A stretch of DNA of 57,724 bases, counting the filler, from Sphacelaria rigidula (lineage: Eukaryota): assembly GCA_964200075.2 (NCBI GenBank). It is 6 parts of 6 records of this genome, joined end to end, with 100 filler letters (N's around TTAATTAATTAA, not from the genome) between each part and the next. Parts side by side here need not be neighbours in the genome. Positions count along the whole stretch, not along the records: positions 28,915 to 38,452 come from CAXNAA020008270.1; 5 more parts are not named here. One strand, written 5' to 3'. The translations under genes were made by a program, and so were the position numbers. This document shows positions 3,001 through 57,656 of this stretch, one piece after another; the first letter of the stretch is position 1; each line of letters begins with the position of its first letter. The notes beneath the pieces were generated by a model, which was not told where the DNA came from, searched no databases, and saw nothing but the letters and a program-made list of their open reading frames with translations.

Positions 3001-3524
3001 GGTTTAACGCCGAATTAGCGCGCAAAATCAGCGGCCACAATCCCTGATATGATCGGGCGGCTCTCAAAACCGAATCGCTGGCAATCCGCCGATCGCCCTC
3101 AACATGTTCGGCGTTGCGAGTAAAAAATCCTGAAATTCGGCGTCCGTCCACCTACTTTTCGGAGTAGTAGTAGCCACACATGCGTCTATTTCTTCGTGCT
3201 ACATGTCAACAATTGATAACCGATTTCGCACACCGCATATGTTGCATGAGAACATGCCGTATGTCTCCCACCCATCCGCATATGTTGCATGAGTACATTC
3301 TGTATGTCTCTCACGCATCACCGGCCGACGCCCCCTGCTCCCCTCTCTACCGGTTATGGGGTGTGCCCGGGAACGGCAGAATAAATCAGGTTTAAACCAT
3401 CTGTCTCATAGGGAAGGGGGTTAATGGAGATTGGCTAAGTCACAGCATATCGCTTGGGCGATGAAAACGCATTGTTTACACACCGTGTGATTTCCGGTGC
3501 AACGGCATACTTGGCACACTTCCA

Positions 3525-3695
3525 GCACCTCCTCTTTCTCGGGACGTGTCCGTGGTTTCAAGAGATTAACCCATTTCTCCCCGGTACACGCCTCCTTACA
3601 TTCTGGCATCGCGGATTGGATCATGACCAGCACCCCTGCACTGCGTCGACTCTCGCCGGATACACTCTTGCTGATACTCACATCTCCACGTTTCC
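3525..3695 (-). mobile_element. SINE-like dispersed repeat (second family)
   Basis: Colinear similarity with 12688-12850 in another contig (gtccgtggt.tcaag.gat.aacccat...gattggatcatgac). Confidence 0.6.
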
Positions 3696-8945: not shown

Positions 8946-9538
8946 TACGACCTCGCACAAAAGCTGCTCAGACGACTCAAACCTGCCAATATAGAAGCCG
9001 TTGCTTATAGCGCCTCGTGATGAAACAAATCGCATGCACGGTAGAGCAGCAGCCCAAACACAGCAAGAGGGAAGTACAGCCGAGACGATGCGACATGCGA
9101 GCAAGGTCACAATATGCTCGACGTGTGCGCCTAGAGTGAAACGGAAAGCGATGGCACTTTGCCACTTCGTACAGTTCCCATTCAAGTGAGAATGGTGTCG
9201 ATTCAATTACTAAGTCAAAACGACGCCAATTACACGAATGCATGTGACCTATGTCCGGTCGAGAGGTGACATCTCCGACGGTCAAAGGGTCCACCGAGAA
9301 GTCCACCGAGGAAATGCATCAAACGGAACGCATCGCAACGTCAAATGCCATGCAGAACACAGCGCGGGAAGTGTATGCACTCCAAACCCAGTAGAACCGA
9401 AACACACCGTAATTTCCAACGAAATGTAAGCGAAGAGGCTGATATGTATAATCAGCGAAAACGTTAAGTCTAAAGAGCCATGCTAAGATTTGGGGGGGGG
9501 GGGGGGGGGGGGGGGATAACGCGCAAACAATACATAAC

Positions 9539-9692: not shown

Positions 9693-9732
<40 letters not shown>

Positions 9733-10807
9733 CTAGGAGGACATGAGTTTACCCAGCGGGTTGCTCATGTCAGTTGGATCACTCCTACAGCCAGTGCGGA
9801 GACGTGAAGTGTATGGGTTTCATACCGTTCTTGTAGCGGTCTCCAACTTTCTCCTTCGACATGAGAGTGCGCGAGGGCGCAGTGCGCAAACACACCACCA
9901 CAGGTGGGCACGGGCACACCAAATAGAGAACAACAGTGCAACACATCCACCAGTACAAAAATGAAATACTCTCTCACACGTCTATGTAGTTCATGCCCAT
10001 CATATACGACAAACTGACATCGGGATTCGTTTACGTGTTTACTTTTGTGCGTATCTTCATTCCGTTATGGTTCACCATGCCGGTGAACCCCCCCCCCCGG
10101 CCCCGCCAAATATGTACGAACGATCTCAAATACCCTGGAACCAACTATCAACGAAAATTACTGTTCTGAAAACGTTGTTGCGTCCTACGGGTCGAAACTC
10201 AAATTTTGTACGCGTATCACGGACAAGTGAGTGAAGATAGAAAGGCACAAGCAAGGCGAGAGGGAAAATTTACAACATAGAAAGAAAAAATGCAAACAAA
10301 CCAGAAAAAAAAAAAAATGCAGGAAAAAGTGACAGGAGGTGAGATGGAATCATGCACGAACGGGGCAGAAAGAGGTGTGAGAGAGACACGCTGTGCAATT
10401 TGAGCAAGAAGGTAACTCACTAGAAAGGGCTGCCAAGCAAAAAAACAAGGTACACATGCGACACTGCATATGACAATGCATCGCTGTCAACACTGTGTAT
10501 GCCGAGATACACAGTGGCGGTCCCGCCATAGTGCGGTCCTGTGAAGTGCGAAGGTTCCGGAGCAGTGCGGACACTCTCTACGATAGCTTCCCCCCAAAAC
10601 CAGCCCGAAACTGGCACGAAGAAAATGATCATACAGCGTCTGATGTTTGGTTTCAGGCTGCACGAAGCGCCTCAAATGGGCGACATTGGCAAAAACGAAC
10701 CCAAGCGTGGAATTCTCAGCTGCTCATTGTTCTCATTTTGTTTTCATTTTGATTCACGTACAAATTTTGCATGCTGAAACCAGCGACTTTTTCTTTTTCT
10801 TTTTTTT

Positions 10808-10920
10808 GGGGGGGGAGCGTACGTACGTGTTGCTTGCCTCAGTTGTTTAACCATTGACCAAGCATCCCTTTCGAAAACGGAGCACCGTTCCTACTCCTCG
10901 TAAAGATACCTCCAACATTC
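10808..10920 (-). mobile_element. 5'-truncated copy of poly(C)-ending LINE 3' end (family 1)
   Basis: Reverse complement of the 38265-38370 LINE terminus, abutting a G-run. Confidence 0.75.
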
Positions 10921-11224
10921 CGGCGCTCATTACGTTTCTTGCATACATCGCAAGGAAACATTGGGAGGGAGCGCTATCGTAGAAAGTATCTGCGGTCGAA
11001 ATCTCTTGTCACAACTGGGATCTGAAGAAATCGCAGAATACCAGTGTAGTGCGGGGTTCCAACATAGTGCAGTCATGACGCACTGGCGAGCTATCGCACT
11101 ATAGCGGGACCCCAGATGTAGTACCATATATTAGTAGGCGACTGAAACAGGCACACCAACAACAACGCCAGTCGGCATCAAAACCAGCAAATAAATACAC
11201 AAACAAAAACAAACACAAACACAC

Positions 11225-12527: not shown

Positions 12528-13048
12528 AACAACGTTTTCGTGAGATTGAGAGTAGAGCGCTGATTGAGAGTGGATTTGATCATTCGATTTAACTTAGCCA
12601 ATTTTTCATTTCCGTGCGTGCTTTTCTTCGCCTCCACCATTGGCGTGTGCTTACGCAGCTTTTTTTTCCCCCCCTCACACTTTGAACCCCTCCCCTTCCT
12701 CGGAGTGGGTCCGTGGTCTCAAGGGATCAACCCATCCCTCTCCCGGTACGTGCCTTTCATTTTGGTCTTGCAGATTGGATCATGACTAACACTCCCGCAC
12801 CGCGTCAACTCACGTCACACAAACCCAGTCGACTACTTTGTTTCCTCACGTTCTCACACACACCGGGGTGCGGCAACTACACGTCGATATCCTACTCAGA
12901 GATATCAAGGGCCTCAGTGGCAAGCTACTGCAGAGAGCATATCGGGCCTCATGGAGGGGCCTTTCGAAACCTAAACGATTCATTCACTAATTGATCGTTT
13001 TTCACCCTCAATCGTATCCTCTACTCTCAATCTCACGAGAACGTCATT
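12528..13048. mobile_element. MITE (family of 6263-6562) with nested SINE
   Basis: Same TIRs and body as 6263-6562, interrupted at gcttacg..ct|acacg by a ~220-bp insert. Confidence 0.75.
12660..12878 (-). mobile_element. SINE nested in MITE
   Basis: Absent from the 6263-6562 copy; T-run at its left end, flanked by gcagct/gcaact; matches 3525-3695. Confidence 0.65.
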
Positions 13049-13051
13049 ACA

Positions 13052-13270
13052 TGTGGTCAATGAACAAACGACCAAGGCAACCAACAACTTAGTACACCCC
13101 CCCCTCCTCCCCCCCCTTTGGTTTGGTGATTGAGTGTGAGCCGGCGGAAACACGGCGTGCTCTGTCCCGGCTTCGTAGGGATTCGAGTCTACAATGGGGT
13201 TATGGCTACGGCATGCATGATTCTGAGTACACCCGCCTCCTTGTATCCTCCCAACCCCCCCCCCCCTCCT
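13052..13270 (+). mobile_element. Adjacent 3'-end fragments of poly(C)-ending families 1 and 2
   Basis: gtggtcaatg..caaacgaccaaggcaaccaacaacttagtaca(C)n followed by ...ggcatgcatgattctgagtacaccc...(C)n. Confidence 0.6.
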
Positions 13271-15469: not shown

Positions 15470-15815
15470 GGTGAGACATCCTTGAGGCAGTATGGAACCC
15501 GTGGCTGTTTCTGGAAGTGGCGATACCAGAAGATGAAGCAGCTGATTATAGACTGTCATCTACATGCAAGATAATCAGTGCGCTTCGGATCGAAATATTT
15601 CAGCAGGACGCAGGTCACTCACCCCTCATGCGACTCGCCGAACACATAACGGCGCTTCGCGCTTGGTAATTGAGTGCGAGCCTGGTCCGGCGAAGAGCCG
15701 GCGTGCCACTTCCCGGCTTTGTAGGGATGCGAGGCCAATAGTGATGTATGTATATATATATATATATATGACTACGGCAGGCGACACCATGAGTACACCG
15801 TCCCTACCCCACCCT
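15470..15815 (+). mobile_element. Retroelement 3'-end fragment, family 2 (ends ATGAGTA + C-rich tract)
   Basis: Colinear with 18415-18685. Confidence 0.7.
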
Positions 15816-16224: not shown

Positions 16225-16320
16225 CTCCGTCCCGAGAGGGATGCGTGGTTAATGGTCGAATGACTAAGGCAAGCAACAAATGAGTACACCCCTCATCCCC
16301 CACCCTCACCCCCACCTCCA
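16225..16320 (+). mobile_element. 5'-truncated LINE 3' end (family 1)
   Basis: ctccgtcccgagagggatgcgtgg...gactaaggcaagcaacaaatgagtaca + degenerate C tract. Confidence 0.8.
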
Positions 16321-16759
16321 TGCCCAACAATAACGAGTAGATGGTTCAAAATATCCCCTTGCCTGACTCAAGAGACCATACTTCAGTCATTTTGTTTTAT
16401 TTTGTGAGACTGATCGCAAATGCACAACAGCAGACAGCTCAGGGTGACAGAGAGCATGCCTCTTGTTGAGGTAGAGGGGACCCCTTCCATAGCATGGTAA
16501 TAACACATTTTTGTTCCTCAGTAAAAACTGTCGGCCACGTGGCTGTTACGGCACTAATTTTGCAGATGCCAAAATAGATGCTGACACCCACGAAGCTCGA
16601 AAACGATTTCAGTACACAGCGCATTGACATTCCTATTTACAAAATACTATTGTACCGTAGCCCCGCCCCCCCCCGCCCGCACACGAGACTGGGATTTGAA
16701 CCCCGCTTCACTTCTTACCATTTTCGTAGTTATGTTTATCCTGTAGGGTGGGCGGAGGG

Positions 16760-18414: not shown

Positions 18415-18685
18415 TGGTGAGACACCTATGAGGCAGTGCGGGACCCGTCGCTGTCTCGTAAAGTGGCGATACCAGAAAATGAACTCATACGTAGGCTGTC
18501 ATCCAAATGGAAGATAATCAGTACGCTTGGGGCCGAAGACATCCCAGTGCTTCGCGCTTGGTGAATGATAGCGAGCCTGGTCCGGCGAAAGCCAGGCGAG
18601 CTCCGCCTCAGCTTTGTAGGGATGCGAAGTCAATAGCCTTACGACTACGGCATGCAAGATCATGAGTAACCCCCCCCCCCCCCCC
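18415..18685 (+). mobile_element. Retroelement 3'-end fragment, family 2
   Basis: Ends GGCATGCAAGATCATGAGTAA followed by a pure C run; matches 15470-15815 and 13130-13260. Confidence 0.72.
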
Positions 18686-22348: not shown

Positions 22349-24788
22349 TCAGGGTGGGTTCAGTCTTCTTGTCGGGACATTATGTTCCAGATCTGTTGGT
22401 CTAGGCTGTGGTCCAGGGTTTTTTGTTGCAGAATTATTTCGAGTACCCCTGCCTCGGTTTCCTAGATCTTGCTGCTTTCCATTGAGATTCCCTGATAGCC
22501 GTGCTACCCTCTCGGCCACCTCCGACTTCGGCCATCTCGAGATGCCGTCAGCTAGTATGTGCTCCACTATGGTACCCCACCCGGTGGCGACTTCCACGCG
22601 ACCCATCATTCTCATCAGGGGGGTGGCGCGTCTGTCTTTCGAGCCCCCGCATTATGTACCCAGTGTACGGCCGACGAGTTGTCCCCGCGCATAAGGGTTG
22701 GACCCCCTCTCTCTGTGGGCCTTTCGCCCTTAAACATCTGGAGAGCGCAGACGATCATGAACATTCCACACACTTCTAGTAGGTTGATCGTGATCGCGCA
22801 GGCTCATCTATTTTTTGCTTTTCTCTCCAGTTCGCATTTGAGCTCATGTGGTAGAGAGTACCGCTAAAATAACCCGAGCTCCGGGCAGTACCCTCCTATC
22901 GCCGCCAGGTTCGCGTCGGAGATGTATGTACGAGATGCGGTGCGTTTGGTGTGGGCAAAAAACGGGGCGCTAAGCGATTCACCGCGTTGCACCAGGTTCT
23001 CTGTGATAGCCCGTTTCCAAAAAGCGATATCCTCGTGAAACTCCCAGCCAAGGTTCACTGTTTGTCTCACCTTACGTTTCTTCTTTGCAGCTACGTTTAG
23101 GTCGGTGAGGCGTAGTAGTTGCCATATGAAGTATTTTCCGGGTCTTACAGCAAACGTGAGGTTCAAGACTTTTCCAGCTTTGCTGAGTACGTCTTGCGCA
23201 GTCGCGCGTGTCTTGTCCGCGGGCCAGTCGCGCTCCAGCAATTCTTTGATAGCTTCAACCTTTACTGGAGTGACCGCTATCCTCGTGGTGTGTGTGTCGA
23301 TCATGAATCCCAACGCGTCTACGCTGGTGTCCCAGTTTGTACTTTTTTACGTGCGACAATGGGTATCTCGCCTGGCTCTCCGGGACCGAGCAGTCTGATG
23401 TGATCTGAGGCTAGCGAAGCTGAAGCGACTAGCGCCAATTCACCTTATGCGCCGTGCTGTACCCTTGCTAGGATGTAGTCGTCCACGTATACGTTAACGA
23501 AAAAAGGGTCGTGTAGTTCCCCCCCCGTTTGGTGGGTGCTCCGTCTCGAAAGGGATGCGTGGTCAATTGTCAAACGACTAAGGCAAGCAACAAATGAGTA
23601 CGCCCCCCCCCGCCCCCCCCCGTTTGGTGGGGGAACAGCAGCTTCGGGCGGGACCTGTGTAGGCGTCCCTTTTTCCCAGGGCTCGACTATGGTCACGTGT
23701 TTCATCTTCTCTCTACCTTCTTGGAGTATTGCGGCGTCGAGTATTGTGGTATTGCAGTGTGCGTACTCAGTGGCCTGTGATGAGAATCCCCAGTAGCCGG
23801 GGGATCCCGTCCATTTAAACGTGAGCCGAAAGTCTGCTACTATAACATCGTCTACCGCGTAGCAGCAGTTTTGCGCCGGTCGGGCGCGATCCTGACATTT
23901 CTGAATGCATTCGAGACGTCCGCCTTTGACAGTAGGGTTCTGCTATCCGGAAACTCAACGCGTAACTTCAAGAGTTCATTCAGTAGTTTTGAAAGTGCTT
24001 CTCCGCACAGGCATTGCGGCACCTCGTCCACAATCTTGTCCCGGTTGAGGCCGCCTTTCTCTCCCTTCGGTACGCTGGGGTCAAACGAAAAGTCGTTGAT
24101 AATCCTGACTTTGCTAGTCACTACTGCCCCAAGCGGGGGCCACTCTGAGGCCACTGATTTCAAGCGCCGCCCTTTTTTCAAACACCAGGCATCTGTTCCT
24201 TCGTACATCCTCTACCAACTTCTCCCGGACTTGAGGCACAATATGTTCTTCGATACTGCGGTGATTACCGTATTTTAGCGCTCCTTGAGGATCGGGGTCG
24301 CGGGACGATGTGTTCATTGGGACTCCGTGCTCTATCATGTGCAGGAGCTCTCGTATCCGGGGGAAGTGTTTTTGGTTTCCGAAATACTCGTGGATATCTC
24401 TCAGGTTCATCAACGGTGACACCAAAGTGCCGCCGAGCTCCTTTGCTACGTCCGCGATTCTTCCGTGGTTGAGTCGGACGAGACTCGTGCAGGTGGCGGC
24501 TAGGTCTGTGATGATACGTTTCATTTCTGTTAGGTCTATGTGTGTATTCGGTAGCTCTTGCTGTTGCTGTTTCCACCGGGTATTGAGGTTTTCGCTTGGG
24601 TCGTCTGTGTGTACGGTTGGGCTTCGGTGGCGTGTGGTCCCAACTGGAAGTGAGTTTCTCACCGACCCGAAATTTCGCCTATCGATGGTCTCCCAACTGT
24701 CGGTGTTGTTCTTTTTCTCTGCCGGCTTCTCGCTTGTCAACGTGTGCGAGCCGTTGTCTGGGGCTACCTGTGTGTAACTATTGTTCAA
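22349..24788 (-). pseudogene. Reverse transcriptase-RNase H of DIRS/Ngaro element (disrupted)
   Basis: YGNHRS, KVRIINDFS, KADVSNAFRNVRI, VYVDDYIL, LGFMIDT, ISDANLAAIGG, INLLE, GDNSSAV and ADGISR motifs across several frames. Confidence 0.9.
23537..23631 (+). mobile_element. 5'-truncated LINE 3' end (family 1) inserted in the Ngaro RT, with TSD
   Basis: tgctccgtctcgaaaggg...caaatgagtacg-C9-G, then TSD CCCCCCCCGTTTGGTGGG (copies at 23519-23536 and 23614-23631). Confidence 0.9.
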
Positions 24789-24828
24789 CGGTTTTGTTTT
24801 AGTGCACTAGGTGCTGTTTTGAACTCGT

Positions 24829-25472
24829 GCACGCTTTCCGCTCGTCAACATGGGCGTGCCGTTGTCCAGGATTCCCTCGGAACTGCCAGACAACCGGTCT
24901 TCTTTGCACTTCTATGTTTTTTTTCTCCCGTACGTTACTGTTTATCGAGTTTGCACGCTTTGCGCTCGTCAACATGGACGTGCCGTTGTTCAGGATTCCC
25001 TCGGGTGCCGAACGGCGGGTCTTCTTTTGCCCTGGGTGTGATTCGAATTTCACGGGGAGCATGAGTTCTGTTATTGCCTGATCTACCGACGTTCAGGGTT
25101 ACCTGTGCGTAACTGCCGAGCGCCGGGTCTTCATTTGTGCGATGATGGTTGGGTAGAACTCTTGCATGCTTTCCGCTGAACAATATCGACGTGCCGTTGT
25201 CCAGGGCTCACTCAGAACTGCCAGACAACGGGTCAACGGGTCTTCTTCTGCACCTTTATGTTTTTTTGCTCCCCTCAAGTTACTGGTTATCGACTTTACA
25301 CGCTTTGCGGTCGTCAATGTGGACGTGCCGTTGTTCAGGGTTCCCTCGGAACTGCCGAAAGCCGGGTAATCTTCTGCACTGGGTGTGATTCGAATTTCAC
25401 GGGGAGCATGAGTTCTGTTATTGTTTGATCTACTGACGTTCAGGGTTACCTGTGCGTAACTGCCGACCGCCG
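24829..25472. repeat. Internal tandem duplication (~340-bp unit, each with two ~80-bp subunits) between ORF1 and pol
   Basis: ctgggtgtgattcgaatttcacggggagcatgagttctgttattg... at ~25030 and ~25380; four copies of the cgcttt.cg...cgtgccgttgt.cagg motif. Confidence 0.8.
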
Positions 25473-26168
25473 AATCTGCTTCTACACGTCTCCTGTCTGT
25501 GAGGATGTGCGAAGTGGTTTTGGCGTGGTGTCTGCGTGTACTACTGTTGTCTTCGTTAGTCGTGCACGAGCAGATTACCTGATCTTGTTGCTGACCTACC
25601 TGTCCACGCTCGTGCATTCCGTTGTACCTCAGAGTCGACCAGTTACTGTGGCCGTGGGGGCCGTTATTCGCGTGTATGCTGTTTTTCATGTTATCGCGGG
25701 GTGCGGTTATCTCATCGAAGTTTTCATGCGTGTGAGCTTTACCGTCCAATCTAATGTACCCTGCTGACGTTTGCTTGTTACAGTACGTCTTGGTGGGGTT
25801 GGTCATCGACCTTTTTGTTGGGCGTGGGCGATGCGGAATGGGGCTACGCGATCTACCGCTGTGACGTGCTTCAGGGTTGCTACATGCGTCGGTACTTCTG
25901 CTCTCACCTTGAAAGAAGCTTGCCGCCACCGACCCCGGTTGGGAGGCCTGGGCGATACCCACCGACCTCGCTGAGTCCGTGACCAGTCCTTTTCCTCCCC
26001 CCAGACTGGTAGGCCCCGCCGACTGGCGGAGCCCGCACCCTCAGGTGCCCCGCCCAGCTCCGCCATTTTCGCACAAGTTGTGGAATAACCGCGCCACTGT
26101 ACTCGCTGCGGCCGCCGGTGCCGCTAGTGCTGGTGGTTTTGCCGTCACCGCCGCCGGGGCTGTTGGAG

Positions 26169-28106
26169 TTATCTTGATCGCCTCTGGCGGCTGGAGGGGC
26201 GGGCCTCCGATGGCTTCGTGCTTGCTGGTGTGGTCCGGGAGGCGGCAGCCGCGCCCCCGTGGGCACGTGAGGCCCTGCCATGCTCGTGACCAGACGCCCG
26301 CCGGCGGGGCTCATGACGCCAGTTCCGTGTTGACATCGGTGTTCGGTGAGGTGAGGTGTAGCCACTAGGGCGGGTACGACGGAGGGTGGGGGGCGACGCG
26401 TTTTACCGCGTTGCTCGTGCCTCCGTCGGGGAGCGCCTTCCGCTTGACGGCTGTCGTGGGGGCGGGCTGCGCGGGTGAGCCTGCTACGGTGAGGCCGGGG
26501 TTCTGGCGTCCAATGGGGTTGCTGGGATGATCGTCAGCGGTGAGCGTCTTGACGCGGGTGAACGCTTGTACCGGCGCTGCGGGTCCCTGCCCGTTGGTGG
26601 GTGGGGCGGCGGATGACTTGAGTCACCCTACGATAGGGGGGGGGTATTTGGGGCCATTTCTTGCACGAAATTCCAAGACAAATCGCCGCTGAAATCAGCA
26701 ACGGTTGCTCGAACGAGCTTGTTATAGATATATACCGCTCGTTCATACCGATTGACACCGTTTTGAACCAAATACAAGCGCATCGCGAGTGTTGCAGGTC
26801 ATCTGACACACTTATTAGCCTTTTTTTCGTGCAACCAAATACCCCCCCCCCTATCGTAGGATGACTCGCTTCATGCGTGGATTCAGCCCGGCGTCCCTGC
26901 AGTCTGTCAGCCACCCGTTGACGTCGTGATTGAAGTCGGTAATTATGCGGGTTTTCACGGCCGCCTCGTCTCTGTGTGTAGCTTCGTACGTTTTCCCGGT
27001 GTACGCGCCCAGCGCCGACGCCATCCTCGTCAGCCCCCCTGTGGTAAAAGCTCTCCTATCCCGTCCGCCGTGGTTGTCGTTGGCGCCGAAGTTGATGATG
27101 ATGACCAACGCCTTGGTGAAGGTGGTGACGTGAACGTCGGCGCGGAAGTAAGGTTTGTTTATGCCCGGGGGCACCGGGGAGTGAAAGTTGGCGGCGTCTA
27201 CATCAGTTAACGTCTGGAGGTCGATGAGCATGTCGCGGTTGGTGTCTGCCACGTCGCGGAGTTTAAGCTTTAGGTTTGCATCTGACATGGGAATGGAAAT
27301 GGAAATGGAGACCCCGCCCCTGAGAATGTGGTGAGGTGCTGTATTTTCGTCCGACAGCCAGCTGTTGATCTCCTGTTTTCCCTGCATTTTTTCTGCCTTC
27401 TTTCTACTGGCGGGGGCGGTGTTAGACGCTCCCATTGATGAATGAGTTGTTGAATCTGCACCCCTCCCGCACCATTGAGAGGCTGGAGGAGTTGGTGGAC
27501 CTGGGATTGCGGCTGTGCTCGGTAGTATTGCTGTGGTTGACGTTGTTGGTGTTGTTGTACGTGGTGCTGATCCAGCTGCGGTTGTTGATGGTGCTGCTGC
27601 GGCTGCGGCTGTTGGTGTTGGCGTTGCTGCTGCGGCTGTTGGTGTTGCCAGTGCTGCTGAGGTTGTTGATGTTGCTGGTGCTGTTGCAGTTGTTGATCAT
27701 GGTGATATGGCTGCGACTGTTGGTGTTGGTGATGCGGTAGCGACCCTTCGATGGGTGGCGGCAGTGGGACGTTGGGTGCGAGCAGGGGGAGCCCGTGTAC
27801 TCTTCCCCCCGCTATGTTCTGTAGCTGTGAGGCGCTCGCCGGCTGCCGGCCGGTCCTACCTCGCGGTTGTGGTTGCCTGTACCGGAGAAGACATACCTGC
27901 TGTTGAAGGGTCGATATCACTTGGCTCTGCTGCTGCTGTCTGTGGAAGTTTTGCTGGTGTTGCTCTTCCATGTTGATGTTCGTTTTTACCTGTGCCTGCA
28001 GGATTTGAGCCAGAATGTCTGACGCTGGCTTAGGCCATGTAACAGCCTGGATTCGTTTTTGAGGTTCAATATTTGGATGAGGTTCAACGGAGCATCGAAA
28101 TTTCAC
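26169..28106 (-). pseudogene. ORF1/gag-like region of the Ngaro-like element: Gln-rich N-terminus, frameshifted and MITE-interrupted
   Basis: ORF 27270-28106 (poly-Q/H) overlaps ORF 26851-27435; removing the 26620-26867 MITE restores the frame (MK(S/P)SAAPPTNGQGP...). Assigned by position, not homology. Confidence 0.55.
26620..26867. mobile_element. MITE with GAGTCA(C/T)CCTACGATAGGG TIRs
   Basis: ~33-bp TIRs, imperfect 4-bp TSD (ACTT/GCTT); inverted copy at 45689-45918. Confidence 0.85.
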
Positions 28107-28947: not shown

Positions 28948-29010
<63 letters not shown>

Positions 29011-33735: not shown

Positions 33736-33894
33736 CTATTTTCCCTAGTCGCCAACAAGTCACCAACGTGCATTGCATGCTTCTTGTTCACCCGTCGTAA
33801 ACCGTGCGTCAAGGCGATGTGGCTGTCGTGTTGACCCCTTCCCGTTCCCTTCCGCGCACGCTCTCGATTTGGAACACCTTTCACTTGTGTCCAG

Positions 33895-34744
33895 GTGTGG
33901 GTATTCGCTACATATTACGCTGATCGTGACACCTACATCATTCGGTGTAAAGACGCCTACGAGAACGACTGGTCTACGTTGCATCCCACGGAAGTCTTCC
34001 AGTGGGATTGCAATGACAGTGATACTACCGACTACACACTATACGACTACTTGACAACCACCTGCCTCTGCGTCGATCCCATTCCTACTCAAGCTCTTAC
34101 TGCCAACACGGACCCTAGTGCTGCTACCCTTGCTTCTGTTCCAGAGACTACTCCTGCTCCTGCTGCCTCGCCAGTGCCTACTTCCGCCGAGGCTACTCCT
34201 GCTCCTGTTCCAGAGACTACTTCTGCTCCTGCTGCCTCGCCAGCGCCTACTTCCGCCGAGGCTACTCCTGCTCCTGTTCCAGAGACTACTTCTGCTCCTG
34301 CTGCCTCGCCAGCGCCTACTTCCGCCGAGGCTTCTCCTGCTCCTGTTCCAGAGCCTACTCCTGCTCCTGCTGCCTCGCCAGTGCCTACTTTCGCCGAGGC
34401 TTCTCCTGCTCCTGTTCCAGAGACTACTCCTGCTCCTGTTGCCTCGCCAGCGCCTACTTCCGCCGAGGCTTCTCCTGCTCCTGTTCCAGAGCCTACTCCT
34501 GCTCCTGTTGCCTCGCCAGTGCCTACTTCCGCCGAGGCTTCTCCTGCTTCTGTTGCCCCAACAGACCCCACTGCGGCTCCTAATGCCACCTCGGGACCTA
34601 CTGCTTCTTGGGTTTCCACCGAGACCCCAGTAACATCTTGGACGCCGGCGCCCCTTGTAGGAGCTCCTACTTCAACTCGTGCTCCTGAGACTGCGTCGTT
34701 CCCGCCTGCAGTCAGCACGCCGACAGGCCAACGGGGGGATGAAG
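33895..34744 (+). CDS. Exon of putative extracellular protein with Pro/Ala/Thr/Ser-rich repeat stalk
   Basis: ccag|GTG acceptor and GAAG|gtaggc donor; VWVFATYY...WDC...TTCLC followed by six 23-aa repeats. Confidence 0.8.
34135..34549 (+). repeat. Coding tandem repeat, 6 x 69 bp (PVPE(T/P)T(P/S)AP(A/V)ASP(A/V)PTSAEA(S/T)PA)
   Basis: Directly visible in-frame 69-bp periodicity. Confidence 0.92.
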
Positions 34745-35189
34745 GTAGGCACAGGTGGGGAATGGAAGTGGACATGACATCGCGATGGGGGGCGTGGATG
34801 GTTTTGCGGACGGGCCCATTTTGGAAGCCCGTCGAGTACGCTGATTGTGCTCTCGTTTGCTCGTTCCCCTTCAGCTCATGCCTGTTCGTTTTCACCTTTC
34901 GATATTATTTGTCGACTCTGAGCCTTTTGCGGTTGTTTCATTCATCAAATCCCCTATTGCTTTTTTACATGACACGATCCGCGCGTGTGCTATATTATCA
35001 TGTCTCCCAAGGAATGTTCCGTTCCCTTTGTTTTGAGCCTGTGGCCACGGAAGGAAATCGTTTCATTCTACGATTTAGTGGGGTAGGTAAAACCACAGAT
35101 GTGCTAAGCAACAGCAGGGTAACTTCCCCGCCAATTCTTCGGAGGTTATCAGGCCCAAGACGGATACGTTCTTGTCTCTACGCGGAGCA

Positions 35190-38100
35190 TACCCGGAGAC
35201 AGATCAAAGAAATGCCGGACTTCCGGTGCAATATGCCCCCAGAATCGAGAAGTACGGTGAACGGTTTACAGCGGAGGTTTGGAGAGATAGAACCAGATGT
35301 ACATGGGCATAAAAGGCACGGAGGAGTAATGTTAGTCGGAGGTTTGACGAATGCAAGGATTAGAAAAGCAGGTTAACCGGATGATATCATTGGGCAATAC
35401 GGTGAAGAGACAAACAACACGAATGGGCGTAGAAACGCTAAAGTTCCTTCAGAATGACGAGATGAAGACACTGAACGATAGAGCACAAAAGCCAGAGGCG
35501 CAATGGGCATGGACTAGAAAATGCAAACACGAGAGAGAACGCTCCGTTCTTGACTATGTAGTGGTGAAAGCATTAAAATAGTAAGGAAATGGAAGTACAT
35601 GTATGCGCAGAGGACGTGGGCACTACAGATCATTGTCTGATGTGGACAGAAAGCCAACGGACGAGAGAGCTAAAAGAAATAGGCGGGGCAGGAAGTTGTA
35701 GTAATTGAGAATAGATATACTAGAAATGGAAGAAAATCAGCGGGAGTTACGAGAAGAGATGTCCAAAACTGCAGTGAAGTTTTCCGAACTGTTGCAGAGC
35801 GTAGGTACAGTTGATACCGAAATGGAAAGAAACCGGGCAGGGGCGGAGATTGTAGAAGAATGGGAGCAGTTGGTCAAGAACACAGCGAGTAAAATCGTAG
35901 GGAAGAAACTGATCGTTTGCAACAGTGCAGTAAAATAGTGGGATGAGGAAGTAAAAGAGGCTGTAAGAGTAAGAAGAGAGGCCCACACAAGATGCATATC
36001 GCGTGAAACTACGGGAGGATGGGAAGAGTATACTAAAGCTTGAAAGGAAGTAAAAAGTATGGTACAGCATGAAAAGAAGAAGAAAGGAATATGGGAAAAT
36101 GTAGTGAATGAAACAAACATTAGTGCACCTTTCAAATGTGGGTAGCGATAAGAGGGATAACGGGAAAGCAGGCAGGAAATATAGGCAAGGGGATAGCCAC
36201 ACTACGAGCACAGAACGGTAAATTGGTTTGTAGTTCGGAAGGGAAGAGATAAGTGCTGGTAGAGCACTACCGTAAACTAGGAACACCAAAAACTAACAAG
36301 AGATTCGACACGGGATCCGAAAAAGATATCGTGGGCAGAGGCAAACGTAGAGGCGTCAAAACGGGAGGATAGTGGCTCGAAAGAATTGCACAGAGAGTTT
36401 GAGAGTTTACTAGAGACAATGTAAAGGAGTGCGTAGCTAAACTCAAGAACAGAAAGGCAGGAGGGGCAGACGAATTAGTGAATGAATTTCTGACGCACGG
36501 GGGAGAGGGAATGATTGCCGTGATAGCTATGCTGTACAACTGGGTCTGGGAACACGAGTACATACCCAAGAGATGAAGAGAAGGAGGAGTTGTCAACATT
36601 CTCAAGAAAGGAGACAAGGCTGACCCAGGGGACTACAGAGGGACAACGCTACTGGGCACGGTAGGGAAAACATTCTGTGAGATTCTGAGTGATGGGGTGC
36701 GAACGATGGTAGAAAAGGAAGAGAGAATCAGCGAGGGGCAAGCAGGTTCTAGACCAGACCGTGATTGGGTAGAGCATGTGTGTACATTAGGTAAGATTGT
36801 TCAAGGGAGGAAAGACGCCGGGCTGACAACGTACTGTTTCTTGCTGGACGTGCAAAATGCCTATGACACAGTATGGAGAAAGTGGGCTGTGGAAAAAGTT
36901 ATGGGAGACTGGGATCAGAGGAAAGATGTGGAGAATGGTGAAGAAGATGACAGAATGTGCGCAAAGTGCTATGATGCTAGACGAGCAAGTATCGAAATGT
37001 TATGGTATTTCACCAGGAGTTGCACAAGGATGTACGTCTCATCACCCAGGTTAGTCAAGGTATCTATTATTGACCTGCTAACACAGCAGTAGAAGCAGCA
37101 AAACAAGGAGTCAAGGTGGGGGAAGACATGGTATCAGGATTGATGCTCGCGGATGATTTCGTGGGGATATCAGGAACAGCAGAAGGATTGCAAAAACAGA
37201 TAGACAAGGCGCTACAACACACTAGGAAAATGGAGAATGACAGCGAACGTTAACAAATGCGCGGTACTTGTCTGAAACGAAGATTAGAAAAACCCGGTAG
37301 ACTTCAAATGGGAGTGAGGAGGAGAGGAATTGTCGATTGTAGACCAGTACGCATACCTTGTGCCTAGATACTAGGATTAAGATATGTATCTTGATGAACG
37401 CGATTGTACCACAGCTGGAATATGCAGAAGTATGGGAGGGGGGACGTGAAGTTGGTGAAGAAGTCGGAAACGGTACAGACGGCAGCAGCTACGAAAATAC
37501 TTGGATGCTCGAAAACGACGAGTAATACAATCTTGAGGGCAGAATTGGGAGTGTACCCACTTGAAACAGAGACATGAGGAAATTGAGATGACAATATAAC
37601 GTAGAGAACATGCAGAGAAAGATCATGTCCGCCATAGTTGATAGGATTGTATGGAAGAAAACGACGAGAGGACAGGCTGGAATGTATGGAACGAGAAAGG
37701 AAAAAACAAGGACGAGGCAATGTCCACAGGTGAATGTGGCGGGTACAAGACAACAGTAAGAGACATGATAAAAATGAAAGAAAAAAAAGTTCTAGGACGA
37801 AAAAGTAGACGAGGAAGAGCACCTGGAGATATACGGGGGGTTGAGGAAGAGGATAGGCATGAAAACATGCTTGCATGACCCAATGGACGCGGCAAAACCT
37901 TGAAGCTTCAGTTTCGAGTAGGGGACCTGGACCTGCCAGAAAGGAGAAGGAAATATACCAGTAGTCGAGAGGAGGAAATAGATGCACCGAATTGCCCCTG
38001 TGGCAAAGCCATGGAGAGAAGGACTCATACAGTGGCAGAATGTGAACTATGTAAGGAGGAACAGGATGTGCTAGATGGGGGAATGCGGAAAGTAAAACGA

Positions 38101-38371
38101 AGGTAGCATGATTTGGTTTGATGCACTCAGACGGCAGGGAGAAAACTATGGCTATACCGGGAGATAGATGGTGGCCACAGACGGCGAAACAGGACGGGGG
38201 TGAGATAGATAAACGGTCTTTGTGTAACACGTGGAAGAAGCGTAATGACCGACGAAATGTTAGAGGTGTGTCCATCAGGAGTAGGAACGGTGCTCCGTCT
38301 CGAACGGGATGGGTAATCGATGGTCAAACGACTAAGGGAAGCAACAAATGAATAACCCCTCCCCCCCCCCC
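35190..38371 (+). mobile_element. Degenerate non-LTR retrotransposon (APE endonuclease + RT + C-terminal Cys/His knuckle), family 1, ending in poly(C)
   Basis: APE remnants (IGQYGEE, SVLDYVV, TDHCL); RT motifs KAGGADE, KKGDKADPGDYRG, EGQAGSR, LLDVQNAYDTVWR, GVAQGC, LADDFVG; CPCG...H....EC; many stops. The 5' boundary is approximate. Confidence 0.92.
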
Positions 38372-38376
38372 ATGTA

Positions 38377-38452
38377 GTGCTCCGTCTCGAAAGGGATGCG
38401 TGGTCAATGGTCAAATGACTAAGGCAAGCAACAAATGAGTACGCCCCCCCCC
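38377..38452 (+). mobile_element. Second short LINE 3'-end copy inserted beside the C tail of the long copy
   Basis: gtgctccgtctcgaaaggg...caaatgagtacg(C)n running into the gap. Confidence 0.85.
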
Positions 38453-45688: not shown

Positions 45689-45918
45689 GAGTAATCCTAC
45701 GATAGGGGGGGAAGCTCGTAGGTGTGTCAGACGACCTGCCACACTCGCGGTGCGCTTGTATTTGGTTAAAAACGGTGTCAAGCAGTGAGAATGGGCGTTA
45801 TTTATCTGTAACAAGCTCGTTCGAATAACCGTTTCGTTACTGCTTTCAACAACGATTTGACGTGCCATTTCGTACAATAGGTGGCCCCAAATACCCCCTC
45901 CCTATCGTAGGGTGACTG
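45689..45918. mobile_element. Intronic MITE (family of 26620-26867, inverted)
   Basis: GAGTAATCCTACGATAGGG...CCCTATCGTAGGGTGACT; body matches reverse complement of 26620-26867. Confidence 0.8.
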
Positions 45919-48188: not shown

Positions 48189-49352
48189 GAAGCTGGGAAT
48201 TCCCACTCTTGGGTTTGTTCTAGTCAATGTCACCGATATGAGGCGCTTCATGTAGCCTGAACCCGAACATCAGGCGCTGTATTGCCATTTTTTTTCGTTC
48301 CACTTTCAGCTGGTTTTGGGGGGGGGGCTATCGTAGAAAGTGATTTAGATAGAATATATTTATATAGATATATACGTGCGTCCATTATGTCCATTGTGTC
48401 CATTCTCCTGGCAGGCTCCTCAGGTCCTGAGTGCTCGAACTTGAACGAAATTCGCAGCCCCGGTCGCTAAGTGAAACCCAAGAAGCAGCAGAGTCCCCCC
48501 CGTGTCAAACGGAGGAGACAGGAAAGGACAAGTCTCGTACCTGCCCCTGGCCCCACGATGGGAATACTTCCGCGTGCAATGCACTTCGTAAGGTGGCGGA
48601 GTAGAGTATGACACCCAGCGAGTAATGAAGGGGATTATTGGCCTCGAGGGTTTGCTCGGAAACTGAGGCGACCAGAGCCATTGAGGCAAACAACATCGGT
48701 TGCCGTTGTCGCGCTCGAACTATATCAATACATCACACATGATAGATGTTTCGTCAAAGACTGGGCCCTGTCCTTCTTTTTCCAACAGTACGAACGCACC
48801 TACGCATTCGCGCACGCGATCCACGTTTGGTTTGGATCGGCGTTTTTTCTCACGCGCGAAAAAACGAGAGTAATGATCGAGAGGCGGCCAAAACTATTGT
48901 GTTTTTTCTTCACTAGGACGAAATGCGATAGTCCATTCTTCATATATTTAATCGTTGAGACGACGGCATGAAGCCCGTTCTCTGGGGTAGCTCATCAGAC
49001 TTTGAAAAAACACGTGTCTTATTAGACAAAATGCCCCATATTTTCTCTTTCCAAGTATGAGCATTGTTTGGTTCGGCGTGGAATACGCGCATTAACGTCT
49101 CTTCATACTGTTGTAGGAACGTTTGTGACATATTCTGAAACTGCAACACCAAAAAAAGGCGTATGTGTGTGTCCATATATATTTAGGAATACATGAATGT
49201 ATCTCGCAAGAGTTCCGTTCATCCTCTCGCCTTCTTCGGGACAAGTCCATGGGCTCAAGGGATTCACCCATCTCATCCATGTTTCATGTAAGTGGCTACT
49301 TCCGGAGAGGAGGGGGATGAGGGGGGGCAAAAGAGAGGGTGGCCGTTTACCG

Positions 49353-56598: not shown

Positions 56599-56743
56599 CT
56601 GCGTTCATTCACCCCGGGAGTCGCACACGGCCACGGCAAACGCGGCGACCAGAGGCACAGTACGGTTTGTTTTAAGTTCTTTTCCATACACAGCGATGAT
56701 CAAGGGAACAGGCGGGAGTCATCCCAACCTGGAGAGGGGGGGG

Positions 56744-57176
56744 CGTACTCCTTTGTTGCTTGCCTTAGTCGTTTGGCCATTGACCACGCATCCCTTTCGA
56801 GACGGAGCACCGTTCCTACTCCCAATAGAGCCACCTCCAACATCCCAACGCCCATTACGTTTCTTCCATACATTACACAAAAACCTTTTACATATCTTAT
56901 CCCCGTCCTGTTTCGTCGTCTATGGCCACCATCTATCTCCTAATATAGCCATTGTTTTCTCCCTTCTGTATAATGCATCAAACGATCTCATGCTATCTTC
57001 GTTTACGTCCCGCATTTCCCCCTCCATCACGTCCCGTTCCTCCTCGTATAGTTCACATTCTGCCACTATATGACTTCTGCTCTCTATTCCTTTGCCACAG
57101 GGGCAGTTGTGTCCATCTTCTTCCTCCTCCTTTCGACGACTGCTATATCTCTTTCTTCTTTCTGGCAGGTCCAGGT
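56744..57176 (-). mobile_element. 5'-truncated LINE (family 1), ~430 bp, with TSD
   Basis: Matches 37925-38350; TSD AACCTGGAGAGGGGGGGG at 56726-56743 and 57177-57194. Confidence 0.92.
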
Positions 57177-57656
57177 AACCTGGAGAGGGGGGGGGCGATA
57201 ATCCATCCCGAGTTGAGAGGGGAGTGTCAATCATTACCCGAAAGCAGATCCTCCGAGCAACCGCTTGGTAACACATACACTCACCACGCTGCCCCCACAC
57301 CTTGGAATGGCTCTTCGCAAACATTTGAGGAATTTTTACGTTGTGGGTCGGCGACGGCAGCTTGCTACTACCAACTCGTGACAGCCTGAACCGACGGCCT
57401 CTTTCGTCCCTGCAACAATTTGGTCACCTCCCCGCCCGCGCCCCCTCGCGAGCGTGGGGTCGCTCGCGGGTACTGCTGCGGCAATACAACGGAGGGCATG
57501 GTGTCGCGGGCAGATTTATCCGACGTCAAGCGCACCCTTCGAGTCCGTTATGTCTCTCAACACACCGAGACAGACCATCCATACAATCATCTAGTTCCGG
57601 GAACTCTCCCCCTTGTTTCTTCTCGGAGTAACTTCTCACAGTCTTCGATGTACGTA

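What the first reader, a model, noticed from the sequence alone, without database searches (positions are those of the whole stretch)
35190..38452. LINE family with almost no 3' UTR and a poly(C) tail, apparently targeting G/C homopolymers
Seen: the APE-RT element ends ...GCAACAAA-TGA-(G/A)TA(CG/A)-(C)n, with the stop codon 4-5 nt from a C run and no poly(A). Seven copies in four contigs end this way (10808, 13052, 16225, 23537, 38371, 38452, 56744). Both copies with intact flanks have ~18-bp TSDs whose first 8-9 nt on the element strand are C (CCCCCCCCGTTTGGTGGG; CCCCCCCCTCTCCAGGTT). One copy sits right beside another copy's C tail. The 23.5-kb copy has an extra C9G beyond the TSD, so C's seem to be carried by the element as well as the target. 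Known: L1 pairs its poly(A) with a nicked T-run during target-primed reverse transcription, and other clades use short tandem tails. Inference: this is a GC mirror of that mechanism, in which an APE nicks G-runs and primes on a poly(C) RNA end. It would seed and lengthen the poly-G tracts that fragment this assembly. I do not know of a description of it, but could not search.
Basis: partly seen in the sequence, partly recalled or inferred. Interest (0 to 1): 0.8.

Follow-up and report, generated by a model that had tools for sequence, protein, structure and literature searches.

The report
Brown-alga LINE ending in a C-run
This is a real jumping gene (an RTE-X-type LINE of brown algae) whose copies end in a run of C and insert at existing C-runs, but curators of the Ectocarpus genome already recorded this habit in 2025, so it is a new member of a known kind.

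Summary
The window carries one long, decayed, 5'-truncated APE+RT LINE copy (35231-38371) and at least eight short 3' fragments. All end ...CAACAAA-TGA-GTACG (or a variant) followed by a C-rich run, with no poly(A). Four independent outside copies, three with long open ORFs, end the same way (C8-C13).

Three window copies have target-site duplications that begin with a C-run. Uninterrupted paralogous sites show the run was there before insertion. Contigs of four public runs show the 3' end at very high depth, tandem unit-Cn-unit arrays, and C-tracts of 30 or more after many copies.

The best reading is target-primed reverse transcription in which the nicked target's G-run pairs with a C-run at the RNA 3' end. 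The targeting is shown. The RNA tail is inferred: one of three duplicated copies carries extra C9G.

It is not new. The curated Ectocarpus transposon table (PMC12477816, supplement) lists RTEX-1/RTEX-2 with "(C)n 3'", "(C)n termini/TSD" and "C-rich" duplications. RTE-type LINEs are known for minimal 3' UTRs, simple-repeat tails and tail-matched insertion sites. No mechanistic study turned up. Interest is moderate.

The parts
35231..38355 (+). Long, 5'-truncated, decayed LINE copy: part of the APE domain, the RT, a Cys-His motif and the C-terminal module. Stop TGA at 38349-38351, then ATAA.
   Evidence: Aligns to L004 (rc) 1751-5007 at 76-80%. tblastn with P0002 covers residues 283-1360 with frame changes and stops. 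RVT_1 hit. The start was fixed.
38356..38371 (+). C-rich end of the long copy (C4 T C11).
38372..38377 (+). ATGTAG spacer between the long copy's C-run and the next short copy. With the run it is the probable 5' duplication of the short copy; its 3' partner lies beyond the piece end.
   Evidence: inference.
38378..38452 (+). Short 66-nt 3' unit (TGCTCCG...TGA-GTACG) plus C9, cut by the end of the piece.
   Evidence: 97% identical to L004 and to the 23.5-kb copy.
23519..23536 (+). 5' target-site duplication: C8 + GTTTGGTGGG.
23537..23602 (+). Short 66-nt 3' unit, young (97% to L004).
23603..23612 (+). C9 G lying between the element end and the 3' duplication. This is the only stretch in the window that must be element-borne or made during insertion.
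23613..23631 (+). 3' target-site duplication: C9 + GTTTGGTGGG.
56744..57176 (-). 433-nt 5'-truncated copy, starting in the LDLPERR region of the protein.
   Evidence: The first ~32 aligned residues of the tblastn HSP carry no real similarity.
56726..56743 (-). 3' duplication (on the element strand, C8 + TCTCCAGGTT). No extra C between the element end and the duplication.
57177..57195 (-). 5' duplication (on the element strand, C9 + TCTCCAGGTT).
10820..10960 (-). 141-nt older copy, inserted in the C/G run of a palindromic repeat (element Y).
10806..10819 (-). 3' duplication of the 10.8-kb copy (element strand: CGCT C8 AA).
   Evidence: The paralogous empty site is at 48318-48327.
10961..10973 (-). 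5' duplication of the 10.8-kb copy (element strand: CGCTCCCTCCCAA).
16225..16330 (+). Short 3' unit followed by an interrupted C-rich tract. A possible 10-nt C-rich duplication is tentative.
13040..13116 (+). Diverged 3' end ...TAGTACA followed by C8 TCCT C8.
18416..18685 (+). Non-autonomous partner (about 270 nt) that shares the LINE's last ~70 nt. Ends GAGTAA + C16.
15470..15808 (+). Second copy of the non-autonomous partner. Ends GAGTACA + a C-rich flank, and its 5' flank is also C-rich (tentative duplication).
13160..13266 (+). 5'-truncated copy of the partner subfamily, followed by a C-rich stretch, C12 and the element Y motif.
26842..26851 (+). Uninterrupted C10 inside an arm of element Y: an example of an empty target of the kind used by L004, by w13.2k and by joints seen in public runs.
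48318..48327 (-). Uninterrupted C10 (minus strand) in another element Y copy: the paralogous empty site for the 10.8-kb insertion.

Best explanation
What it is. A family of APE-type non-LTR retrotransposons of brown algae. It is most likely the RTE-X family that Ectocarpus curators call RTEX-1/RTEX-2, together with non-autonomous partners that share its last ~70 nt. One ORF of about 1380-1430 aa encodes endonuclease then reverse transcriptase. The ORF runs to within 5 nt of the element's end.

Shown.
- The last ~100 coding nt are far more conserved than the rest of the ORF.
- Every copy is followed by a C-run on the sense strand.
- Insertions sit at the 5' edge of C-runs that existed beforehand. 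The run plus about 2-12 further nt is duplicated.
- Old copies' runs are re-used, which gives tandem arrays.

Inferred.
- The endonuclease nicks the bottom strand at the 3' edge of the G-run.
- The freed G-run 3' end pairs with a C-run at the 3' end of the RNA. That C-run is transcribed from the run that follows every source copy.
- The RT, bound to the conserved 3' module, starts cDNA synthesis at or inside that run.
- The register of pairing, and slippage, decide whether no extra C (two copies), extra C9G (one copy) or a much longer tract is left behind.
- Each insertion doubles the run at that site, so the family breeds its own targets.
For: Identity.
- Pfam finds Exo_endo_phos + RVT_1 on P0002, P0004 and the L004 ORF.
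- The best solved relatives are L1 ORF2p (6.6e-21) and R2 (8.8e-20).
- ORFs are 1426 aa (L004), 1382 aa (L006) and at least 1253 aa (L002). Each ends TGA-GTACG-Cn.
- The nearest named proteins are from Ectocarpus (55% over 79% of the query; 71% over 35%). One of them ends in the same C-terminal peptide.

End anatomy.
- 13 of 13 aligned ends are followed by a C-rich tract, and 9 of 13 by an uninterrupted run of 8 or more C.
- This includes copies from three metagenome records and one mis-binned MAG contig.

3' module. The last 100 nt are 96% identical between L004 and L006, against 49-86% in the other ORF windows. The partner elements share only this part.

Targeting.
- Duplications C8/9+GTTTGGTGGG, C9/8+TCTCCAGGTT and CGCT-C-run-AA.
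- Empty paralogous sites carry C7-C10.
- L004's 3' flank is the same element Y site.
- In public runs, a 5' junction in element Y (26851->23537, with 12 nt between; runs X3, X4) and a 3' junction (23619->26844; runs X1, X4).

Self-targeting. 'Goes back' joints from the C-run to the unit start are listed in 69, 30, 72 and 5 contigs of X1, X3, X4 and X6. The window's own pair is at 38356-38452.

Element-borne or expanded C.
- The extra C9G at 23603-23612.
- Loose ends behind 23621 continue with 11-19 more C in 408 (X1) and 260 (X4) contigs.

Literature.
- The same traits are noted for RTEX-1/2_Ec32 (supplementary table seen).
- The first base of duplications correlates with the 3' microsatellite in RTE-related retroposons (abstract of PMC6007223).
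Against: - No RNA 3' end was seen, so the C-run on the RNA is an inference.
- Two of the three duplicated copies (56.7 kb, 10.8 kb) have no C beyond the duplication. That fits equally well an RNA ending at GTACG.
- The long copy (35231) has no C-run at its 5' edge.
- One partner copy (18416) has a non-C-rich 5' flank.
- The full-length copies L004 and L006 run off their contigs at the 5' side, so no duplication of a full-length insertion was seen.
- The long C-tracts come from short de Bruijn contigs. They cannot be paired with their 5' duplications.
- The predicted RNA fold of the 3' module is no better than shuffles (z -0.55) and shows no covariation.
- Assignment to RTE-X rests on the paper's own BLAST note and on the link through Ectocarpus proteins. 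No tree was built here.
Confidence: 0.68

Rival explanations
1. Targeting only. The RNA template ends at ...GTACG with no C tail. The endonuclease (or the RT's choice of primer) is specific for the edge of G/C runs. Every C after a copy is duplicated target.
For: The 56.7-kb and 10.8-kb copies have no C beyond the duplication. Empty element Y sites have C10, and the filled site in L004 has C10. Microsatellite-specific APE LINEs are known (Waldo, Mino, Kibi, Koshi, Dong; passages of PMC3812793).
Against: The C9G between element and duplication at 23603-23612 is absent from the 5' side. Hundreds of contigs carry C-tracts of 30 or more after the element end, while the 5' duplicated runs seen are 8-11. 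Any transcript reading past GTACG must contain the run, because every source copy is followed by one.
Confidence: 0.22
2. Tail only. The C-run is a templated tail like L1 poly(A), and insertion sites are not chosen for C-runs.
For: A C-run follows all copies. The Ectocarpus table writes '(C)n 3''.
Against: The 5' copies of 3 of 3 duplications contain the run. These are original target DNA. Uninterrupted paralogous targets also have the run. The same table lists the duplications as 'C-rich'.
Confidence: 0.04
3. Artefact. The C/G runs are sequencing or assembly errors (poly-G from two-colour chemistry) attached to a repeat end.
For: Very long G-runs (G24, G38, G59) lie near piece ends, and none is next to a LINE end.
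Against: The same junction occurs in five independent assemblies and in four runs from three studies. The runs are flanked by matching duplications and by unique sequence.
Confidence: 0.02

Closest known systems
RTEX-1_Ec32 / RTEX-2_Ec32 and RTEX-N1/N2_Ec32 of Ectocarpus (Genome Biol 2025, PMC12477816, supplementary annotation table)
   Same: Single EN-RT ORF and a length of 5.5-5.9 kb (here more than 5.16 kb). The table's notes read '(C)n 3'', '(C)n termini/TSD' and TSD 'C-rich'. Its non-autonomous partners share about 60-100 bp of the 3' end and 'can be present in tandem'. All of these traits are seen here. Ectocarpus proteins are 55-71% identical.
   Different: Probably another brown-alga genome and a diverged family. 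The paper's main text does not discuss the C-runs (0 hits for 'C-rich') and offers no mechanism.
RTE-clade LINEs with minimal 3' UTR and simple-repeat tails (lepidopteran RTE, PMC2887409; RTE-1_Ec32 with (CAA)n; the RTE-related SINE insertion signature, PMC6007223)
   Same: One EEP+RT ORF and a 3' UTR of a few nt ending in a repeat. There are many 3'-partial copies. The tail repeat correlates with the start of the duplication, and the elements seed simple repeats (abstracts).
   Different: Here the repeat unit is a single C, and the matching stretch in the target is a run of 8-11 nt rather than one or a few bases. The T-stretch signature described for RTE was not looked for.
L1 poly(A) / T-rich target priming
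   Same: A homopolymer at the element end pairs with the complementary homopolymer exposed by the nick. Duplications begin with the tail's base.
   Different: There is no poly(A) and no separate ORF1. The 3' end is recognised through a conserved module (stringent type) rather than through the tail alone. The run is largely supplied by the target.
Microsatellite-specific APE LINEs (Waldo ACAY, Mino AC, Kibi TC, Koshi, Dong TAA; review PMC3812793)
   Same: APE-type elements that insert specifically into simple repeats.
   Different: Those elements target di- to tetranucleotide repeats and, as I recall, belong to other clades (R1, Tx1, R4). The passages read list no mononucleotide C/G target.

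Membership tests
APE-type non-LTR retrotransposon (LINE) | An AP-endonuclease-like domain N-terminal to a reverse transcriptase in one protein. | tested here: met
   Exo_endo_phos at 170-392 and RVT_1 at 740-989 of P0002, and the same on P0004 and the L004 ORF. The RT matches L1 ORF2p and R2 structures.
APE-type non-LTR retrotransposon (LINE) | 5'-truncated copies flanked by variable target-site duplications. | tested here: met
   Copies of 66, 141, 433 and 3125 nt share one 3' end. Duplications of 13-19 nt flank 3 copies.
RTE-X (RTEX) clade; specifically RTEX-1/2_Ec32-like | RT-domain phylogeny grouping with Repbase RTEX references. | not testable with these tools
   No Repbase or Dfam reference is held. 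The paper's table reports best blastp RTEX-4_NV / RTEX-1_BF for the Ectocarpus families.
RTE-X (RTEX) clade; specifically RTEX-1/2_Ec32-like | Single EN-RT ORF, about 5.5-5.9 kb, (C)n at the 3' end, C-rich duplications, and partners sharing the 3' end. | tested here: met
   Searches compared with the table. Among the table's 11 LINE rows only the RTE-X rows have these traits; the RTE rows have (CAA)n and the CRE row has (CA)n.
RTE-X (RTEX) clade; specifically RTEX-1/2_Ec32-like | Sequence similarity to the Ectocarpus elements. | tested here: inconclusive
   There is 55-71% identity to unnamed Ectocarpus sp. proteins, and one has the same C-terminal peptide. That these proteins are RTEX-1/2_Ec32 copies was not verified.
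RTE group (general) | Extremely short 3' UTR ending in simple-sequence repeats. | tested here: met
   TGA + 5 nt + Cn in L002, L004, L006 and the window copies.
L1 clade | Poly(A) tail, and a separate ORF1. | tested here: not met
   No A-rich tail on 13 of 13 ends; the A-rich stretch after w10.8k is target. The only long sense-strand ORF listed is a single one of 1382-1426 aa, preceded by about 700-1000 nt. A short ORF1 was not looked for.
Microsatellite-specific LINEs (Waldo, Mino, Kibi, Koshi, Dong) | Insertion at a fixed place in a simple repeat. | tested here: met
   The element end abuts the first C of the run in the duplicated copies and in the element Y sites. This is likeness of behaviour only; clade membership was not tested.

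The most novel reading that the evidence does not exclude
Pairing between a G-run primer and a C-run on the RNA, rather than endonuclease sequence specificity, is what selects insertion sites. Because each insertion duplicates and can lengthen the run, this one LINE family and its 66-nt tail-only and SINE-like derivatives would be the main generator of G/C homopolymers and of unit-Cn tandem arrays in brown-alga genomes. That would make it a natural G:C counterpart for testing the primer-pairing models of target-primed reverse transcription.
Probability: 0.35. Interest if true: 0.55.

Novelty: new member of a known kind. Interest (0 to 1): 0.35.

Why it matters
It explains why G/C homopolymers are so frequent in this genome: 32 runs of 8 or more where about 1.3 are expected. 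It may also explain why short-read assemblies of such algae break at them. It gives annotators a clear signature for a very abundant brown-alga repeat, namely a 66-nt unit plus Cn, often in tandem. The family could also serve as a test system for how far base pairing between the nicked target and the RNA 3' end decides where LINEs integrate. The trait has been noted in a curated table, but none of the papers I found studies it.

Tried and rejected
- Rfam scan of the whole window: no family.
- RNA fold of the 3' module: z -0.55, 0 compensatory pairs. No structure is claimed.
- Whole genome of the window: not held.
- Earlier-findings look-ups: nothing on this genome or sequence, and the two unrelated red-alga notes were not used.
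- Viral contigs: one chance 18-mer match (L001), and no relative of P0002.
- Genome contigs: L005 is a chance match. The MAG holding L006 has only that one copy.
- Duplications of full-length copies: L004 and L006 run off their contigs inside the 5' UTR.
- Duplication of the long window copy: none was recognisable at 35231, and its 3' flank lies beyond the piece end.
- The upstream ORF 33835-35376 runs into the copy but has no Pfam hit and no homology before 35231. It was rejected as part of the element.
- The apparent tblastn extension of the 56.7-kb copy past its 5' duplication has no real similarity.
- Other LINE coding regions in the window: none.
- Expression: no RNA holder is listed. Runs X6-X9 are only guessed to be RNA, and X6 covers neighbouring bins too, so nothing is concluded about transcripts or their ends.
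- Orthologous empty site of the 23.5-kb copy: no contig skipping it was listed among the 15 joints shown, with 96 more not shown.
- Literature searches that found no description of a poly(C)-tailed LINE: 0 papers; 4 papers, judged unrelated from the listing.
Window references were used instead.
Full report
**Layout and observation.** The window is six pieces of about 9.54 kb joined by N spacers. No whole genome is held for it.
- 10.8 kb (-), 13.0 kb, 16.2 kb, 23.5 kb, 38.3 kb, 38.4 kb and 56.7 kb (-)
- two ends of a diverged subfamily, at 18.6 kb and 13.2 kb.

The end reads ...GCAACAAA-TGA-GTACG (ATAA in the long copy) and then a run of C. I aligned 13 ends, 9 from the window and 4 from outside. 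Nine have an uninterrupted run of 8 or more C directly after the stub. Four have an interrupted C-rich tract. None has an A-rich tail. About 1.3 runs of 8 or more C or G are expected in 57 kb of this composition (my calculation), and 32 are present.
- The long copy starts at 35231, not 35190.
- The 16.2-kb copy's run is interrupted.
- The A-rich stretch after the 10.8-kb copy belongs to the target.

**What the element is.** A piece of the long copy hits RVT_1. A protein search found intact relatives of 1328-1360 aa (P0002, P0004) that end in the same peptide as the window copies. They carry Exo_endo_phos and RVT_1. Their RT resembles L1 ORF2p (6.6e-21) and R2 (8.8e-20) among solved structures.

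A 21-mer of the element end found 3 records in metagenome contigs, and all 3 are copies. A 22-mer found 2 records in genome contigs. One is a copy on a contig of a bacterial MAG, presumably mis-binned, and the other is chance.
- L004 carries an open ORF of 1426 aa.
- L006 carries an open ORF of 1382 aa.
- L002 has an ORF of at least 1253 aa that is open to the contig start.
- In all three the ORF is followed by TGA, GTACG and C10, C13 and C8.
- L003, a 1.3-kb record in which the reading frame shifts once (two open stretches of 198 and 226 aa), ends CTACG plus C11.

So the family is, or recently was, active, and its 3' UTR is 5 nt plus the run.

The window's long copy aligns to L004 positions 1751-5007 at 76-80% and is full of stops. 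It is an old 5'-truncated copy. The nearest named proteins are from Ectocarpus (55% over 79% of the query; 71% over 35%). A fragment from Undaria also matches, and one Ectocarpus protein has the same C-terminal peptide. The runs that hold the window's sequence are labelled with one coded organism and 'algae metagenome'. The host is therefore very probably a brown alga.

**Target or tail.** Three window copies have recognisable duplications.
- 23.5 kb: C8+GTTTGGTGGG on the 5' side and C9+GTTTGGTGGG on the 3' side. A further C9G lies between the element end and the 3' duplication.
- 56.7 kb: C9+TCTCCAGGTT on the 5' side and C8+TCTCCAGGTT on the 3' side, with nothing extra. The apparent protein match beyond the 5' duplication is empty of similarity.
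- 10.8 kb: CGCTCCCTCCCAA on the 5' side and CGCT-C8-AA on the 3' side, with nothing extra.

Under the standard model of target-primed reverse transcription (recalled, not read here), the 5' copy of a duplication is original target DNA. So the run was there before insertion in 3 of 3 cases.

This is backed by paralogous empty sites. The 10.8-kb copy sits in the G/C run of a palindromic repeat, which I call element Y. Other copies of element Y carry an uninterrupted C10 or C9 at that place (48318-48327, 26636-26644, 26842-26851). L004's 3' flank and the 13.2-kb copy's flank are the same element Y site.

Two further duplications (16.2 kb and 15.5 kb) are C-rich but tentative. Against the pattern, the long copy has no C-run at its 5' edge, and the partner copy at 18416 has a non-C-rich 5' flank. 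The full-length copies L004 and L006 leave their contigs inside the 5' UTR, so they give no duplication.

**Public runs.** I laid contigs of four runs on 22500-27500 at 90% likeness. These were X1, X3 and X4, taken as DNA, and X6, only guessed to be RNA.
- The bin holding the 66-nt unit has a summed depth of 1.4-4.4 million in the three DNA runs, against about 2-10 thousand in most other bins. The tool warns this is not a copy number, but it shows very high repetition.
- Contigs that go from the C-run back to the unit's first bases (23535-23539) are listed in 69 (X1), 30 (X3), 72 (X4) and 5 (X6) contigs. These are tandem unit-Cn-unit arrays like the window's own pair at 38356-38452.
- A joint from element Y's C10 to the unit start, with 12 letters between (X3, X4), and a joint from the unit's run into element Y's run (X1, X4) are the two junctions of insertions at element Y's run.
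- Loose ends behind the first C9 go on with 2-13 C and then become heterogeneous. Behind 23621 they go on with 11 more C in 408 contigs of X1 and with 19 more C in 260 contigs of X4. Many copies are therefore followed by C-tracts of about 30 or more.
- Loose ends before 23535 mostly continue into the LINE body (agreement 0.55-0.60).
- No contig skipping the 23.5-kb insertion was among the 15 joints shown (96 more were not shown).

**The 3' module.** L004 and L006 are 49-86% identical in 100-nt windows across the ORF, but 96% identical in the last 100 nt. A non-autonomous element of about 270-340 nt (15470-15808, 18416-18685, 13160-13232) shares only the last ~70 nt. Three window copies and most 'goes back' joints begin within 5 nt of the same point, 66 nt from the end. 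This fits a stringent-type LINE whose RT recognises the end of its own coding region. A stable or covarying RNA fold was not found.

**Mechanism.**
- *Shown:* insertion at the 5' edge of pre-existing C-runs on the sense strand; duplication of the run plus 2-12 nt; re-use of earlier copies' runs; long C-tracts after many copies.
- *Inferred:* the bottom strand is nicked at the 3' edge of the G-run. The G-run 3' end pairs with a C-run at the RNA's 3' end. That C-run is transcribed from the run behind every source copy. The RT starts at or inside it. The pairing register and slippage then leave no extra C, C9G, or a long tract.
- *Odds:* I put 0.68 on this reading and 0.22 on targeting only, in which the RNA ends at GTACG. 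The rest goes to tail-only or artefact, both of which the duplications and the independent assemblies contradict.

**Comparison with what is known.** The supplementary annotation table of the Ectocarpus transposon paper (PMC12477816; I saw passages of the main text, part 1 of supplementary file 1, and searches in the supplements) lists:
- RTEX-1a_Ec32: 'single EN-RT ORF; (C)n 3'', 5867 bp.
- RTEX-2_Ec32: '(C)n termini/TSD'.
- RTEX-N1a_Ec32: 'can be present in tandem', with 60 bp of its 3' end 83% like RTEX-1/2.
- 'C-rich' as the TSD entry for all six RTE-X rows.
- The RTE rows in the same table have (CAA)n and the CRE row has (CA)n.

The main text calls RTE-X the most abundant LINE group (16,418 copies) but has no occurrence of 'C-rich' and does not discuss the runs.

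Other relevant papers:
- The Saccharina genome paper mentions a young RTEX-1 (passages).
- Abstracts seen show that RTE LINEs generally have an extremely short 3' UTR made of simple repeats and spread 3' partial copies. They also seed microsatellites and show a correlation between the tail repeat and the first base of the duplication.
- A review lists microsatellite-specific APE LINEs (ACAY, AC, TC, TAA and others). The passages read list no C/G homopolymer target.
- Searches for a poly(C)-tailed LINE found nothing else.

Membership in RTE-X could not be tested by a tree, because no Repbase references are held. It rests on the unique match of anatomy and on the Ectocarpus protein link.

**Verdict.** The RNA-tail half of the mechanism remains an inference. 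The trait is already recorded for the same kind of element in Ectocarpus and fits the known habits of RTE-type LINEs, with the repeat unit reduced to one base. I file it as a new member of a known kind, of moderate interest. Its use is as an explanation of G/C homopolymers and assembly breaks in brown algae, and as a possible G:C test case for primer pairing in LINE integration.

Noticed in passing
26610-26877; 45705-45917; 10572-10973; 48189-48342: Element Y, a high-copy MITE-like palindromic repeat of about 270 bp. Its inverted arms each contain a G/C run of 7-10 next to the motif CTACGATAG / CTATCGTAG(GATGACTC). Its depth in public runs is about 10-50 times that of neighbouring bins. Its runs are recurrent LINE targets. 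It may correspond to a 'C-rich termini' unknown family in the Ectocarpus table (unknown7-N1_Ec32), but this was not tested.
   Followed up: partly
15470-15808; 18416-18685; 13160-13232: A SINE-like non-autonomous element of about 270-340 nt that shares only the last ~70 nt with the LINE. It begins GGTGAGACA... Its head has no Rfam match. One copy holds a (TA)n insert.
   Followed up: partly
L004 and L006, roughly 4300-4500 nt before the element's 3' end: A stretch that is 91-93% identical between two subfamilies that are otherwise about 78% alike. It lies in the 5' UTR and, in L004, just into the start of the ORF. It may be a promoter or another cis signal.
   Followed up: no
9492-9515, 9695-9732, 28951-29009: Very long G-runs (G24, G38, G59) lie within about 100 nt of piece ends, and none abuts a LINE 3' end. 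They could be real expanded tracts or poly-G sequencing artefacts; this could not be told.
   Followed up: no
34123-34587: A tandem array with a period of about 69 bp (self-matches 89-95%), inside a 513-codon open frame that has no Pfam hit, just upstream of the long LINE copy.
   Followed up: no
P0009-P0012: More distant LINE families (39-40% identical) keep a ...GCVVNG-like peptide 6-25 residues before their stop. The 3'-end module may be conserved well beyond this family, at the protein level, the RNA level or both.
   Followed up: no
L006 1-286 (reverse-complement orientation): The 5' UTR region of this copy holds about 66-bp tandem repeats, each ending in a T8-T10 run.
   Followed up: no
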